Source: Acidithiobacillus sp. (GTDB lineage Bacteria > Pseudomonadota > Gammaproteobacteria > Acidithiobacillales > Acidithiobacillaceae). Taken from it: a stretch of 64,000 nucleotides of DNA. A program made the translations under genes and the position numbers. The DNA is taken from positions 79,998 through 143,997 of the forward strand of contig NZ_JALNYM010000004.1 of the NCBI RefSeq assembly GCF_023229925.1. Direction: 5' to 3'. Below the pieces are notes generated by a model. It was given only the letters and a program-made list of their open reading frames with translations, did no database searches and was not told the DNA's origin. Each line of letters begins with the position of its first letter. Position 1 is the first letter of the stretch. Shown here piece after piece: positions 55,260 to 58,593 of this stretch.

Positions 55260-57422
55260 TCAGGTAATCAGTAAGGGGTCCACATCAAGCATCCAGCGCA
55301 CCTTTCTGGCGGAGTGAAGCTCGGCAAATTGTGGCAGCCAGAGTTTAAGCGCTTTTTGCATTTGGGCCCGACTTGGTGCTTGTATCCAGAGCTCTGCACG
55401 CTCGAATCCAGCACGACGCTCCATGAGCGACGGCGTCGGACCGCTGATCTCCACCAGAGTGGGCGGTGCGCATTGGCAGGCGGCCCTCAGGAATTCGTCT
55501 ACCCGGCACCGTTGGTGCGCCTCGGCACGCAGCAGGGTAAGGGCTCCAACGGGCGGTAGCCCCGCCGCCCGGCGTTCATCCAGGAGAGCCTGGGCCGGAG
55601 GGCGGTAGTCGCCCTGAGCGAGGCTTTGCAGTAAAGGATGTTCGGGTAGATGGGTCTGCAGTAGTACCTGGCCGGGTCGCTCTTCACGACCTGCGCGACC
55701 TGCGACTTGTAGAACGGTCTGCAGCAGTCGTTCAGGAGCCCGAAAATCAGCGCTGAACAGACCCTGGTCAGTATTGATAATACCGACTAGGGTGACGGCC
55801 GGGAAGTGGTGTCCCTTAGCCAGCATTTGGGTACCCACGAGGATGGCAGCACGATTCTGGCGAATGTCGGCGACCACCGTAGTGAGGGCATCGCGACCCT
55901 GTAGTGCGTCGCGGTCGATACGCCAAATGGGGGTCTGAGGAAAGCGCTGGCGAAGTACCTCCTCCAGTTGCTCCGTGCCTTGGCCTGCGGTGATTAGCGC
56001 CGCACTGCGGCAGGCGGGGCAGACTTGCGGCCAGCGTGATACGTGATTGCAATGATGACAGCGGAGGCGTTCCTGTTGACGATGCCAGGTCATGGGCGCG
56101 CTGCAACGAGGGCAGTGCACCACATGACCACAATCGTGGCAGAGCACTGCTGGGGCATAGCCGCGACGATTCAGGAACAGTAATACCTGGTTGCCTGCTT
56201 CCAGGGTTTCCTTACACGCCGTTAACAGCGTAGAGGAAATGCCACCCTGCAGGTTCTCGCGGCGCACTGGTACGATGGTCATCTTCGGCAATTCCGCTGA
56301 AGTGGCGCGCTGGCGCAGCTCCAAGTGTCGATAACGGCCCTTTTGCGCGTTGTAGAGACTTTCCAGAGAAGGGGTGGCAGAGCCGAGCACAATGGGAATG
56401 TTTTCCAGGCGCGCGCGCTGAATCGCAAGATCCCGCGCCGAATAATGCCAGCCGTTCTGCTGCTTGAAAGAGGGATCATGTTCTTCATCGACAACAATCA
56501 TGGCAAGACGGGGCAGGGGTACGAAAAGTGCCGAGCGGGTGCCAACGATGACCTGAATCTGTCCCGCTGCCGCCGCTGCCCAGATGCGCAAACGTTCGGC
56601 GTCGCCTTGTGCAGAGTGCAAGGCGGCTACGCGATGCTCGCCAAAACGCGTTTGGCAGCGTTCTACGAGTTGGGGGGCGAGGCCGATCTCCGGGACCAGA
56701 ATGAGGACCTGTGCCCCAGATGCCAGATGCGGTCGGATTGCTTCCAGATACACTTCTGTTTTACCGCTGCCGGTTACTCCCTCTAGTAACCACGCGTGGA
56801 AGCTTCCGGCCATGCGTAATTGCAATACGGCGCTTTCTTGCTCCGCGTTTAGGTCATATGGAGAGGGCGCCGCCTGTTCTGGTGAGATAACTTCCGTCAC
56901 CGCTTCTATCCAACCACGCCGGATGGCCTGCCGTAAAATGTGGCGTAATTCTTTGGGAATTTCTGCATCAGGCACAACACTCGTGGTGCCGAGCAATTCC
57001 CGGAGCGTTTGTTGCAATTTTCCGGGTTGGCGTGGTGCCGTCTGGGCCTCGATAGCACTGAGGCGGTAACCCCAGGGAGCCGGTTTTGGTAGCGGCCGTC
57101 CTTGACGCAGCAGGGTCGGCAAGGCGGTGGCCCAGGCATCGCCGAGCGGGTGATGGTAGTATGCCGCCCCGAACTCTATCAATTGCTGCAAGGCAATGGG
57201 TAAAATGGGATGCGCATCCAGAACCCGCTCGATGGTCTTTAGCGTTACATCGGGCGGGCAACTGGCGTAACCGAGAATGATGCCTACCCGACTGTTTTTG
57301 CCGAAAGGTACCCGCACCCGCATACCCGGCTGCAGATGGCCCTCCGACGGCGGGGCGTAAGAAAATATGCGGCGGAGCGGTACCATGACGGCGACCTGAA
57401 TGCATCTGGTTTCAGCGCTCAT
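55260..57422 (-). CDS. priA: Primosomal protein N' (replication restart helicase)
   Basis: GVTGSGKTEVY, VDEEHD, CxxC clusters, GTQMLAKGHHF and QVAGRAGR motifs. Confidence 0.96.
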   Translation of the reverse strand: MSAETRCIQVAVMVPLRRIFSYAPPSEGHLQPGMRVRVPFGKNSRVGIILGYASCPPDVTLKTIERVLDAHPILPIALQQLIEFGAAYYHHPLGDAWATALPTLLRQGRPLPKPAPWGYRLSAIEAQTAPRQPGKLQQTLRELLGTTSVVPDAEIPKELRHILRQAIRRGWIEAVTEVISPEQAAPSPYDLNAEQESAVLQLRMAGSFHAWLLEGVTGSGKTEVYLEAIRPHLASGAQVLILVPEIGLAPQLVERCQTRFGEHRVAALHSAQGDAERLRIWAAAAAGQIQVIVGTRSALFVPLPRLAMIVVDEEHDPSFKQQNGWHYSARDLAIQRARLENIPIVLGSATPSLESLYNAQKGRYRHLELRQRATSAELPKMTIVPVRRENLQGGISSTLLTACKETLEAGNQVLLFLNRRGYAPAVLCHDCGHVVHCPRCSAPMTWHRQQERLRCHHCNHVSRWPQVCPACRSAALITAGQGTEQLEEVLRQRFPQTPIWRIDRDALQGRDALTTVVADIRQNRAAILVGTQMLAKGHHFPAVTLVGIINTDQGLFSADFRAPERLLQTVLQVAGRAGREERPGQVLLQTHLPEHPLLQSLAQGDYRPPAQALLDERRAAGLPPVGALTLLRAEAHQRCRVDEFLRAACQCAPPTLVEISGPTPSLMERRAGFERAELWIQAPSRAQMQKALKLWLPQFAELHSARKVRWMLDVDPLLIT

Positions 57423-57426
57423 GGAG

Positions 57427-57625
57427 TTGCCCACAACTTCTGTGGATAAGTCTGTGTATGAACATCTTGAAAAGTCCCAGACTCCCTGTTCTTCAACGCG
57501 TTAGAGTAGACGCCTAAAAAAGGTGCAAAATAAAAGATAATAAAAAACAATATGTTAATAATTTACACCAAAAACATAGTGGGACCACCCCAGCTTGTCC
57601 CCGTGTATGAGTAAATTGTGTATAA
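57427..57625. promoter_or_regulatory. Cluster of DnaA boxes flanking an AT-rich core
   Basis: TGTGGATAA (57441-49) and TGTGTATAA (57617-25) match TTWTNCACA on the minus strand; near-boxes at 57427-35, 57453-61 and 57602-10; A-rich stretch at about 57515-57580. Confidence 0.65.
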
Positions 57626-57690
57626 GTTTGTCAACGGTTGCTTTCAAAGTGCTCTGGGTATGCACGGATGGCCAAAAAATGGTCAATCTT

Positions 57691-58593
57691 CTATAGTGCC
57701 GTCGGTAGAATGGGTACCCCGCACGGAGCCAGCCCGGCAACAATCCCCCAGAAGAGCAGCAAACCGATCCAGTTATTATGCAAAAAAGCGCGGAATGCCT
57801 GATCCCGGTCGCCGCCGAGCAGCGACTGCTCGTAGGCCGCGAGAACGGTGGCACCTGCCAAGGCGATCCAATAAGGCCAATGCATGCCCTGCTCAACGCC
57901 GATCCCGAAAAAAGTCATGAGCATGACGGCTTGCAGGCCAGCAACGGCGTGACGGTCAAAACGTCCAAAAAGAATGGCCGTCGACTTGATTCCGGCCTTG
58001 AGGTCGTCTGGACGGTCGGCCATAGCGTAGGCCGTGTCATAGGCGACGACCCAGCAGGCATTGGCCAGCATCAGCCACCAGGCGAGTGCCGGAACTTGCC
58101 CGAGGGTCGCGGCAAACGCCATGGGTATACCGAAGGAAAAGGCGATACCCAGATAAGCTTGCGGGAGGTGCGTGAAGCGCTTGAATAGCGGGTAGGTAAC
58201 AGTAATGAGCACGGCGCCCGCCGCTAACCATATGGTCAGCCAGTTGAGAAAGGGCAAGAGCGCTGCGGCTAGCAGGCAGAGAATAACGAACAGGCGCAGT
58301 GCTGCCCGCGAGGTGATCAGGCCTGTCGCCAGGGGGCGCTGGCAGGTACGGGCGACCTGACGGTCGAAATCGCGGTCAAAGTAATCATTGATCACACAGC
58401 CCGCTGAGCGCATCAACCAGGTGCCAACGGTGAAAATCAGGAAGTGATCGAGTGACGGAGTACCCCTAGCGGCCAGCCAGAGTCCCCAGTAGGTGGGCCA
58501 GAGCAGGAGCAGGGTGCCAATGGGACGATCCATGCGCATCAGGGCCACATAGGCGCGTAGGCGTTGGCGGAGTGGCGCCGGAGTCGCTTGCAT
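57691..58593 (-). CDS. ubiA: 4-hydroxybenzoate polyprenyltransferase
   Basis: RMDRPIGTLLLLWP, GCVINDYFDRDFD and YDTAYAMADRPDD motifs. Confidence 0.95.
   Translation of the reverse strand: MQATPAPLRQRLRAYVALMRMDRPIGTLLLLWPTYWGLWLAARGTPSLDHFLIFTVGTWLMRSAGCVINDYFDRDFDRQVARTCQRPLATGLITSRAALRLFVILCLLAAALLPFLNWLTIWLAAGAVLITVTYPLFKRFTHLPQAYLGIAFSFGIPMAFAATLGQVPALAWWLMLANACWVVAYDTAYAMADRPDDLKAGIKSTAILFGRFDRHAVAGLQAVMLMTFFGIGVEQGMHWPYWIALAGATVLAAYEQSLLGGDRDQAFRAFLHNNWIGLLLFWGIVAGLAPCGVPILPTAL

What the first reader, a model, noticed from the sequence alone, without database searches (positions are those of the whole stretch)
57427..57625. DnaA-box / AT-rich / DnaA-box element between ubiA and priA (oriC-, DARS- or datA-like)
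Seen: in the 268-bp ubiA-priA gap there are two perfect DnaA boxes (TGTGGATAA 57441-49; TGTGTATAA 57617-25) and three near-boxes (TTGCCCACA 57427-35, TGTGTATGA 57453-61, CGTGTATGA 57602-10). They form two clusters around a strongly A-rich core (about 57515-57580) in a high-GC genome. The left cluster has oppositely oriented boxes only 5-27 nt upstream of the priA start. Established: box clusters next to AT-rich unwinding elements mark origins; opposed boxes occur in DARS; dense boxes titrate DnaA at datA. Inference: this is either a replication-control locus far from dnaA or direct DnaA control of the replication-restart gene priA, a link between initiation and restart that I do not know to be described here.
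Basis: partly seen in the sequence, partly recalled or inferred. Interest (0 to 1): 0.65.

Follow-up and report, generated by a model that had tools for sequence, protein, structure and literature searches.

The report
DARS-type DnaA-box module before priA
The gap in front of the replication-restart gene priA in this Acidithiobacillus genome is not the chromosome origin; it holds a strongly conserved set of docking sites for the replication initiator DnaA, laid out like the E. coli "DARS" sites that recharge DnaA, a device that the papers I read describe only for E. coli's close relatives.

Summary
Both perfect DnaA boxes, the 268-bp gap and the 82% A+T core are at the stated coordinates. The origin reading fails: dnaA and the GC-skew minimum lie on another contig, and skew does not switch here.

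The left cluster (57427-57461) matches the E. coli DARS core: box I opposed to boxes II and III, 5-bp and 3-bp spacers, and a consensus box II. It is the only such site in the 2.47-Mb genome. Boxes I, II and the distal box (57617-25) are invariant in 25 genomes of the family, while the flanking coding DNA varies. An IHF-like site sits at +118 and the distal box at +190, offsets that recur in related loci. The same core lies upstream of priA in 48 of 80 beta/gammaproteobacterial loci, and the core pattern occurs in 197 of 401 genomes sampled from the class.

Most likely this is a non-origin DnaA-IHF assembly site of DARS type. Here it also overlaps the priA leader, 5 nt from the ATG.

One caveat: Gln208, which E. 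coli DnaA needs for DARS activity, is Met here and Ala in most relatives.

This scan has already noted the same module in many other genomes.

The parts
57427..57625 (.). Whole DnaA/IHF-type module: core, A-rich middle and distal box
   Evidence: Conserved as a unit in 25 genomes of the family. Its internal offsets are shared with loci from other beta/gammaproteobacteria.
57427..57435 (+). Box I, TTGCCCACA (2 mismatches to TTATCCACA), opposed to boxes II and III
   Evidence: Invariant 9/9 in 25 genomes. Occupies the position of DARS box I. Begins 5 nt upstream of the priA ATG.
57436..57440 (.). 5-bp spacer ACTTC between boxes I and II
   Evidence: Same length as in E. coli DARS1 (ATTCC) and in both DARS-geometry sites of the rppH-mutH gap. 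PMC6868365 states a 5-bp space.
57441..57449 (-). Box II, perfect consensus (TTATCCACA on the minus strand)
   Evidence: Invariant 9/9. Box II of DARS1 is also the full consensus.
57453..57461 (-). Box III, TCATACACA on the minus strand (2 mismatches), 3 bp from box II; II+III form a 'double DnaA box'
   Evidence: The double box with 2-3 bp spacing is the in vivo DnaA binding unit in E. coli (PMC11317965). 4/9 columns invariant, mean conservation 0.90.
57512..57530 (.). Conserved GCCYAAAAAAGKKGCAA with partial dyad symmetry; candidate site for a nucleoid protein (Fis-like, 5 of 6 specified positions of GnnYAnnnnnTRnnC)
   Evidence: 9/19 columns invariant. The consensus is taken from PMC4245941. 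Binding was not tested.
57515..57580 (.). A-rich tract, 82% A+T
57545..57557 (+). IHF-like site AAACAATATGTTA (12 of 13 to WATCARNNNNTTR) at +118 from the start of box I
   Evidence: an exact IHF consensus lies at +118 to +121 in 25 of 81 related loci. In E. coli, the PciI site that overlaps IBS1-2 lies at +121 of one DARS-geometry core, and a consensus IHF site lies at +119 of the other.
57602..57610 (-). Weak near-box CGTGTATGA (3 mismatches)
   Evidence: 0/9 invariant, mean 0.79. Doubtful as a DnaA box.
57617..57625 (-). Distal DnaA box, TTATACACA on the minus strand (fits TTATNCACA), same orientation as boxes II and III, at +190
   Evidence: Invariant 9/9. A same-orientation box lies at +188 to +204 in 46 of 81 related loci.
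57629..57634 (-). TTGACA hexamer (-35-like) next to the distal box; no convincing -10 follows
   Evidence: Read. The strict promoter scan found no minus-strand promoter in the gap. Untested.
55260..57422 (-). priA (primosomal protein N', replication-restart helicase); start is the ATG at 57422
   Evidence: NF004067, 904 bits, above its cut-off. Start codon fixed by the indel.
57691..58593 (-). ubiA (4-hydroxybenzoate polyprenyltransferase), the upstream neighbour on the same strand
   Evidence: TIGR01474, 326 bits, above its cut-off.

Best explanation
The gap holds a single-copy, non-origin assembly site for the initiator DnaA, with the architecture of the E. coli DnaA-reactivating sequences (DARS).

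Proposed mechanism, with each step marked as shown or inferred:
1. A DnaA dimer binds the double box II+III (57441-61). Inferred from E. coli ChIP and mutational data on double boxes.
2. A further protomer is recruited to the opposed box I, 5 bp away, which gives a head-to-head contact. The geometry is shown; the contact is inferred.
3. A bend at the A-rich, IHF-like site (+118) brings the same-orientation distal box (+190) to the core complex. Inferred from the conserved offsets.
4. The complex changes the state of DnaA, most probably by releasing ADP so that DnaA reloads ATP, as at DARS. Inferred, and not testable here.

In Acidithiobacillus the core lies 5-39 nt upstream of the priA ATG, so priA transcripts must start in or cross the module. 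DnaA occupancy should therefore also affect priA expression, and priA transcription should disturb the complex (inferred).
For: - Geometry is identical to E. coli DARS1. E. coli has TTATCCACT-ATTCC-TGTGGATAA-CCA-TGTGTATTA; this window has TTGCCCACA-ACTTC-TGTGGATAA-GTC-TGTGTATGA. The papers name these as the common DARS features: box I opposite to II and III, a 5-bp I-II space and the same spacing in DARS1 and DARS2.
- It is the only such site in the genome, with none in random controls.
- Boxes I, II and the distal box are invariant in 25 genomes of the family, while the neighbouring coding DNA varies.
- The IHF-like site at +118 and the distal box at +190 fall on offsets that recur in 25 and 46 of 81 related loci. 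E. coli DARS-geometry cores have IHF sites at about +119 to +121.
- The genome encodes Hda above its curated cut-off, IHF alpha and beta, and a Fis-like protein. ADP-DnaA is therefore expected to be made, and the cofactors exist.
- DnaA keeps L290, D269, R285, F239 and K243.
- The module is autonomous of its neighbouring gene. The same core occurs before priA (48/80), before xseA on the opposite side of the core (18/80), and elsewhere. In other taxa it lies upstream of a promoter-like site.
- The core pattern is found in 197 of 401 sampled genomes of the class, with 0 hits for the reversed control pattern.
Against: - No binding or activity was measured.
- Gln208 is needed for ADP release at DARS in E. 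coli (PMC6868365). It is Met in this DnaA and Ala in 22 of 30 DnaAs sampled from the class, whether or not the genome has the core. The E. coli head-to-head contact is therefore not conserved.
- The II+III double box is also the generic DnaA site at ordinary regulated promoters.
- The IHF-like site has one mismatch and the Fis-like site matches only 5 of 6 positions.
- The order of elements (Fis-like before IHF-like) and the orientation of the distal box differ from the E. coli DARS2 region as I read it.
- Boxes II, III and the distal box, all in one orientation across an IHF site, also fit datA.
Confidence: 0.5

Rival explanations
1. The primary function is transcriptional control of priA by DnaA. 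DnaA bound to the double box II+III and to box I, within 39 nt of the ATG, blocks or tunes priA expression and so couples replication restart capacity to initiator status.
For: - The core is 5-39 nt upstream of the priA ATG in every Acidithiobacillaceae genome examined.
- The same core is upstream of priA, with priA always on the box I side, in 48 of 80 loci across beta/gammaproteobacteria.
- DnaA double boxes mark regulated promoters of replication, repair and nucleotide genes in E. coli.
- In this genome the only other non-origin pair of consensus boxes lies upstream of nrdA, a classical DnaA target.
Against: - A simple operator does not need a 200-bp module with an IHF-type site and a distal box at fixed offsets.
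- The position relative to the promoter is not conserved. The core is about 100 bp upstream of priA, beyond a promoter-like TTACTT-N17-TAATGT, in other taxa, but inside the leader here.
- The same module occurs beside unrelated genes and on the other side of the gene at xseA.
- No sigma-70 promoter was found on the priA strand in the gap.
- priA is not among the 16 DnaA-bound regions in E. coli.
Confidence: 0.25
2. The module is datA-like. ATP-DnaA oligomerises head-to-tail on the same-orientation boxes (II, III, distal) across an IHF bend, and is titrated or driven to hydrolyse ATP. This would restrain initiation rather than promote it.
For: - Boxes II, III and the distal box share one orientation, with an IHF-like site between them. 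[quoted passage not shown]
- The missing Gln208 does not matter for this reading.
Against: - The invariant opposed box I at 5 bp is a DARS feature that the description I read does not give for datA.
- My pattern search of E. coli K-12 (CCAC-N6-TGTGGATAA-N3-TGTG) hit only DARS1. It also missed both DARS-geometry sites of the rppH-mutH gap, whose boxes differ from the pattern, so this is weak evidence about datA.
Confidence: 0.12
3. The site is a chromosomal or secondary replication origin, with DnaA boxes flanking an AT-rich unwinding element.
For: There are box clusters on both sides of an 82% A+T tract.
Against: - The cumulative GC-skew minimum is at C2:~560 kb, next to dnaA (C2:556425-557717). 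That region has its own box clusters and AT-rich tracts on both sides of dnaA.
- Contig C3 rises monotonically through the site.
- There are only 3 to 5 boxes and no initiator or rep gene nearby.
- The same module occurs 1-5 times per genome in relatives, in front of housekeeping genes.
Confidence: 0.02
4. The conserved gap encodes a structured RNA (a priA leader or a small RNA), and the 'boxes' are incidental.
For: The gap is conserved. There is a small dyad at 57512-57530 with some compensatory differences between clades.
Against: - No Rfam family matches (best E = 0.25, far below gathering scores).
- Folding energy is no better than shuffles on either strand (z = -0.14 and -1.50).
- The invariant columns coincide exactly with 9-mers that match DnaA boxes.
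Confidence: 0.02

Closest known systems
E. coli DARS1 (DnaA-reactivating sequence 1, bioD-uvrB gap; NC_000913.3 about 813105-813141)
   Same: Three DnaA boxes with box I opposed to II and III. A 5-bp I-II spacer and a 3-bp II-III spacer. Box II is the full consensus, while I and III are degenerate (box III is TGTGTATTA in E. coli and TGTGTATGA here). It is intergenic, far from oriC, and lies in front of a DNA-maintenance gene.
   Different: DARS1 is 101 bp and needs no IHF or Fis. The module here is about 200 bp with an IHF-like site and a distal box. Box I is TTGCCCACA rather than TTATCCACT. The host DnaA has Met, not Gln, at position 208. Activity is untested.
E. coli DARS2 region (rppH/ygdT-mutH gap)
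   Same: A DARS-geometry core plus a regulatory region with IHF and Fis sites and further DnaA boxes. IHF sites lie about +119 to +121 from the start of box I, against +118 here. Both cores of that gap are bound by DnaA in vivo.
   Different: The order and identity of the accessory sites differ: here a Fis-like site at +85, an IHF-like site at +118 and a same-orientation box at +190. The papers describe the DARS2 core as conserved only among gammaproteobacteria related to E. coli (PMC4245941), whereas this is Acidithiobacillus. Here the module abuts a start codon.
E. coli datA (DDAH locus)
   Same: A non-origin DnaA-box cluster with one IHF site between same-orientation boxes. Function depends on spacing.
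   Different: The essential datA boxes all point one way. Here an invariant opposed box I sits 5 bp from box II.
DnaA-regulated promoters with a 'double DnaA box' (nrdA, polA, purH and others; Stringer et al. 2024, PMC11317965)
   Same: Boxes III+II here (TCATACACAgacTTATCCACA on the priA strand) form a double box with 3-bp spacing next to a replication gene.
   Different: Those sites are not reported with an opposed third box, or with an IHF site and a distal box at fixed offsets. priA is not in the E. coli DnaA-bound set.

Membership tests
DARS (DnaA-reactivating sequence) | [quoted passage not shown] | tested here: met
   57427-35 (+), 57441-49 (-), 57453-61 (-). Definition from PMC5742627 and PMC6868365.
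DARS (DnaA-reactivating sequence) | [quoted passage not shown] | tested here: met
   ACTTC (5 bp) and GTC (3 bp), compared with ATTCC and CCA in DARS1. The 5-bp space is stated.
DARS (DnaA-reactivating sequence) | Box II is a high-affinity (consensus) box that nucleates assembly | tested here: met
   TGTGGATAA is exact and invariant in 25 genomes.
DARS (DnaA-reactivating sequence) | Non-coding chromosomal site away from oriC | tested here: met
   Intergenic between ubiA and priA. dnaA and the skew minimum are on another contig.
DARS (DnaA-reactivating sequence) | Regulatory IHF site at a fixed distance from the core (DARS2 type) | tested here: inconclusive
   12 of 13 match at +118. An exact consensus lies at +118 to +121 in 25 of 81 related loci, and E. 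coli has sites at about +119 to +121. Binding was not tested.
DARS (DnaA-reactivating sequence) | Fis site required for activation (DARS2 type) | tested here: inconclusive
   Only a 5-of-6 match to GnnYAnnnnnTRnnC, at 57512-26. A Fis-like gene is present (41% identity over 78 aa).
DARS (DnaA-reactivating sequence) | Host DnaA residues needed for DARS-dependent ADP release: Gln208 (head-to-head contact) and Leu290 | tested here: not met
   Leu290, Asp269, Phe239 and Lys243 are kept, but position 208 is Met. It is Ala in 22 of 30 DnaAs of the class sample.
DARS (DnaA-reactivating sequence) | ADP-DnaA is produced in the cell (Hda/RIDA present) | tested here: met
   Hda, TIGR03420, 208 bits against a cut-off of 194.8.
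DARS (DnaA-reactivating sequence) | Promotes ADP dissociation from ADP-DnaA and stimulates initiation | not testable with these tools
   Needs biochemistry and genetics.
datA (DDAH locus) | Essential DnaA boxes all in one orientation, with a single IHF site between them | tested here: inconclusive
   Boxes II, III and the distal box share one orientation across the IHF-like site, but an invariant opposed box I is also present.
Chromosomal origin (oriC) | Lies at the GC-skew switch, with many DnaA boxes next to a DUE and usually beside dnaA, gidA or rpmH | tested here: not met
   The skew minimum is at C2:~560 kb beside dnaA. There is no switch on C3.
DnaA-regulated promoter | Double DnaA box (2-3 bp spacing) overlapping or next to a promoter, with expression that responds to DnaA | tested here: inconclusive
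   The double box is present. No promoter was found on the priA strand by the consensus scan.

The most novel reading that the evidence does not exclude
In Acidithiobacillus the DARS-type core has become part of the priA leader. Initiator status (DnaA occupancy of boxes I-III) would then directly gate synthesis of the restart helicase, and each priA transcript that crosses the core would strip DnaA and IHF and reset the module. This would be a two-way link between replication initiation control and replication restart. It would work with a head-to-head DnaA contact that does not use Gln208.
Probability: 0.2. Interest if true: 0.75.

Novelty: new member of a known kind. Interest (0 to 1): 0.6.

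Why it matters
The papers I read describe the cycle that switches DnaA between active and inactive forms through chromosomal sites (DARS1, DARS2, datA) only in E. coli, and state that the DARS2 core is conserved among its close gammaproteobacterial relatives. A core with the same geometry is invariant across the Acidithiobacillaceae genomes sampled, and the pattern occurs in about half of the genomes sampled from the class. This suggests that DnaA control by chromosomal sites is old and widespread.

This genome is a clean test case because it has a single copy. Two points make it more than another example:
- The module abuts the start of the replication-restart gene priA.
- The host DnaA, like most DnaAs in the class, lacks the Gln208 that E. 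coli needs for DARS activity.

So either the mechanism differs from the E. coli model, or these conserved modules do something other than release ADP. Both outcomes would interest the field, and both can be tested with standard DnaA biochemistry.

Tried and rejected
- **oriC:** rejected on whole-genome GC skew and the location of dnaA.
- **Chance:** rejected by genome-wide counts, Markov-1 controls and conservation. With up to 1 mismatch allowed, pairs of boxes within 250 bp are common in the genome. Box density alone is therefore not informative; the three-box geometry is.
- **RNA element:** no Rfam match and no excess folding energy on either strand.
- **priA promoter:** the consensus scan found none on the minus strand. 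TTGACA at 57634-29 lacks a -10, and TTCAAG-N17-TATCCA is weak and not conserved. I could not place the promoter.
- **ubiA terminator:** a weak hairpin with a T run at 57592-57570 on the minus strand is not conserved in relatives.
- **Non-priA copies as dnaA promoter regions:** I guessed this, but tblastn with DnaA found nothing. Most of them are xseA upstream regions.
- **Second copy in this genome:** none found. The dnaA-dnaN gap has TGTGGATAA-N5-CTGTATAA but no opposed box I.
- **E. coli DARS2 core:** I first took the site at L037 2952-86 as the core. The PciI/IBS1-2 statement points to 2636-70. ChIP-seq shows both are bound. I could not see the published figure, so the labelling of these two sites is my own reading.
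- **Literature:** searches for DARS outside E. coli relatives, for DnaA control of priA, and for Acidithiobacillus oriC found nothing relevant. The Halomonadaceae dual-oriC preprint concerns mnmG and rpmH sites, not priA.

Full report
**What is in the sequence**

priA (55260-57422) and ubiA (57691-58593) both lie on the minus strand. Both score above the curated cut-offs of their NCBIfam models. The priA start is the ATG at 57422. The ORF lister extends to a GTG at 57434, but relatives carry a 1-nt indel between the two codons, so only the ATG stays in frame.

The boxes are as follows:
- TGTGGATAA (57441-49) and TGTGTATAA (57617-25) are exact.
- TTGCCCACA (57427-35) and TGTGTATGA (57453-61) each have two mismatches to the consensus.
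- CGTGTATGA (57602-10) has three mismatches and is a poor box.

Positions 57515-57580 are 82% A+T, in a genome of 57% G+C.

**Not an origin**

The window is C3:79998-143997 of a 2.47-Mb, four-contig assembly. dnaA is at C2:556425-557717. The cumulative GC-skew minimum is at C2:~560 kb and the maximum at C4:~490 kb. C3 rises monotonically, including through the site. Both flanks of dnaA carry their own DnaA boxes and AT-rich tracts. The oriC reading is refuted.

The skew also shows that replication moves left to right through the window, so priA and ubiA are transcribed head-on to the fork. If replichores are roughly balanced, the module lies about 0.3-0.6 Mb from oriC on a replichore of about 1.1 Mb. 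This is an inference, because the order of the contigs is unknown.

**More than chance**

The genome has only 47 TTATNCACA sites. Two occur within 300 bp at just three places:
- the dnaA-dnaN gap;
- a site 140-180 bp upstream of nrdA, a classical DnaA target;
- this gap.

With one mismatch allowed, such pairs become common, so box density alone is weak evidence. The decisive feature is the layout.

**The layout is that of a DARS core**

The E. coli DARS1 core, read from NC_000913, is TTATCCACT-ATTCC-TGTGGATAA-CCA-TGTGTATTA. The window reads TTGCCCACA-ACTTC-TGTGGATAA-GTC-TGTGTATGA. Box order, orientation (I opposed to II and III), the 5-bp and 3-bp spacers, and a consensus box II flanked by degenerate I and III are all the same.

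The literature gives exactly these as the shared features of DARS1 and DARS2: opposed boxes I and II, a 5-bp space and identical spacing in both (PMC6868365; PMC5742627).

Two sites with the same geometry lie in the E. coli rppH-mutH gap, which holds DARS2. ChIP-seq shows that both are bound by DnaA in vivo (PMC11317965).

A lenient template for this layout hits only window position 57427 in the whole genome, and nothing in five Markov-1 random genomes. The module is therefore single-copy here.

**Conservation within the family**

A DNA search of relatives recovered the region in all 22 other genomes sampled from the genus and in two further genera of the family. In the 25-genome alignment:
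- box I, box II and the distal box are invariant in 9 of 9 columns;
- the first 24 nt of priA have no invariant column;
- the ubiA 3' end has 9 invariant columns of 60.

A further block, GCCYAAAAAAGKKGCAA (57512-30), is conserved with partial dyad symmetry. It matches the Fis consensus at 5 of 6 specified positions.

**A family far beyond this genus**

The record titles name Acidithiobacillus, which is the window's genus, and many Beta- and Gammaproteobacteria.

Among the 80 loci fetched:
- 48 have the core directly upstream of priA, with priA always on the box I side. The distance is 4-6 bp in Acidithiobacillus and mostly 95-125 bp elsewhere.
- 18 have xseA on the opposite side of the core.

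Anchored at box I, an exact IHF consensus lies at +118 to +121 in 25 of 81 loci. A DnaA box with the orientation of boxes II and III lies at +188 to +204 in 46 of 81. The window has a 12-of-13 IHF match at +118 (57545-57) and its distal box at +190.

In E. coli, the PciI site reported to overlap IBS1-2 lies at +121 of one DARS-geometry core, and a consensus IHF site lies at +119 of the other.

In an even sample of the class, 197 of 401 genomes (163 of 321 genera) contain TTNNCCACA-N5-TGTGGATAA-N3-TGTG, with 1-5 copies each. The reversed control pattern was found in none.

**Is the cellular context right?**

The genome encodes Hda (208 bits, cut-off 194.8), IHF alpha (63% identity to E. coli), IHF beta (54%), and a Fis-like protein (41% over 78 aa). 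ADP-DnaA should therefore be formed, and the DARS2 cofactors exist.

DnaA is 54% identical to E. coli DnaA. It keeps the Walker motifs, R285, D269, L290, F239 and K243.

**A real caveat**

E. coli Gln208 is needed for ADP release at DARS. With Q208A, ADP release on DARS1 falls from about 90% to about 40%, and the toxicity of DARS2 oversupply is lost.

In this DnaA the residue is Met. In 30 DnaAs from the class sample it is Ala in 22, Ser in 3 and Gln in only 2. This shows no relation to whether the genome carries the core. The E. coli head-to-head contact is therefore not conserved. Either other contacts serve, or the module does something else.

**Which function?**

The II+III pair is the generic "double DnaA box". 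It is the unit of DnaA binding at DARS, datA, oriC and ordinary regulated promoters in E. coli, so it does not discriminate between readings.

The following argue for a higher-order nucleoprotein complex that acts on DnaA, rather than a plain operator:
- the invariant opposed box I at 5 bp;
- the fixed offsets of the IHF-type site and the distal box;
- the occurrence of the module beside different genes, on either side of the core;
- its variable position relative to promoters. It lies upstream of a TTACTT-N17-TAATGT site in Acidiferrobacteraceae-type loci, but inside the leader here.

By geometry the closest model is DARS. The same-orientation boxes across an IHF site also recall datA.

In Acidithiobacillus specifically, the roughly 95 bp that separates core and priA elsewhere is missing. 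priA transcripts must therefore begin in or cross the module, so an effect of DnaA occupancy on priA expression is likely in this genus. I could not locate the promoter.

An RNA reading is unsupported.

**Relation to earlier work of this scan**

After reaching the DARS reading, I found that the scan has noted "DARS-like DnaA/IHF modules upstream of priA" in many other genomes. These include Betaproteobacteria, Arenicella-like and Psychrobacter genomes, and there are also exbB-xseA copies. None of the notes concerned Acidithiobacillus. My independent results agree with those notes.

New here are the single-copy state, the core abutting the priA ATG, and the Gln208 test.

In the papers I could search, DARS is described only for E. 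coli and close relatives. I found no report of DnaA control of priA.

**Verdict**

oriC is refuted. A DARS-type, non-origin DnaA assembly module is the best reading (about 0.5). DnaA control of priA (0.25) and a datA-like role (0.12) are live alternatives, and they are not mutually exclusive with the best reading.

Noticed in passing
G000 C4:1037334-1037376 (outside the window): This is the only other non-origin place in the genome with two TTATNCACA boxes within 300 bp (TTATCCACA and TTATGCACA). It lies 140-180 bp upstream of nrdA (ribonucleotide reductase alpha), divergent from a tldD-like gene. nrdA is a classical DnaA-regulated gene in E. coli, so DnaA probably also acts as a transcription factor here.
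   Followed up: partly
G000 C2:555915-556096 and C2:557751-557980 (outside the window): Both flanks of dnaA carry DnaA boxes next to AT-rich tracts. Upstream: TGTGGATAActtTGTGGATAG plus TGTGGAAAA. In the dnaA-dnaN gap: TGTGGATAA and TTATCCACA, followed by about 60 bp of nearly pure A/T. The GC-skew minimum is here. The origin could lie on either side of dnaA, or be bipartite.
   Followed up: partly
DnaA, G000 C2:556425-557717, and 29 DnaAs of the class sample (L163-L192): The residue aligned with E. coli DnaA Gln208 (needed for DARS-dependent ADP release) is Ala in 22 of 30, Ser in 3, Gln in 2, and Met in this genome. It is independent of whether the genome has the DARS-geometry core.
   Followed up: yes
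L037 (E. coli NC_000913.3 2966500-2972500), positions 2636-2670 and 2952-2986: The E. coli rppH-mutH gap holds two sites with full DARS-core geometry about 316 bp apart. The second has a consensus IHF 13-mer at +119. I could not tell from the texts available how the second relates to the numbered DnaA boxes IV-VI of DARS2.
   Followed up: partly
L039, L052, L060, L061, L066, L069, L074, L096, L100, L103, L117 and others (18 loci): In many Betaproteobacteria the same core (TTGCCCACA-N5-TGTGGATAA-N3-TGTG) lies 190-1040 bp upstream of xseA (exonuclease VII large subunit; TIGR00237, 483 bits), often with an exbB/tolQ-like gene on the other side. E. coli DARS1 and DARS2 are likewise next to DNA-repair genes (uvrB, mutH).
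   Followed up: partly
L099 (JAQUAU010000074.1, labelled Candidatus Paceibacterota MAG): This 3.9-kb contig carries ubiA, the module and priA, with 87% amino-acid identity to the window's PriA. It is almost certainly an Acidithiobacillus contig mis-binned into a Paceibacterota MAG.
   Followed up: no
window 57669-57685: A small dyad, TGGCCAAAAAATGGTCA, lies just downstream of the ubiA stop. It resembles the conserved GCCTAAAAAAGGTGC at 57512-26 (a GCC/GG(T)C arm around an A6 run). It is present only in the closer relatives, and its meaning is unknown.
   Followed up: no
window 55260-58593, contig C3: GC skew shows that the + strand is the leading strand across C3. priA, ubiA and the ubiC-like gene are therefore transcribed head-on to replication.
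   Followed up: no
L040, L062 (Bermanella-type gammaproteobacterial MAGs): Here the core lies about 150 bp from the end of an acyl-CoA dehydrogenase-family gene whose best match is PRK11561, described as isovaleryl-CoA dehydrogenase (499 bits, below the 545 cut-off); from memory, that is the model for E. coli AidB. This is a further context for the module.
   Followed up: no
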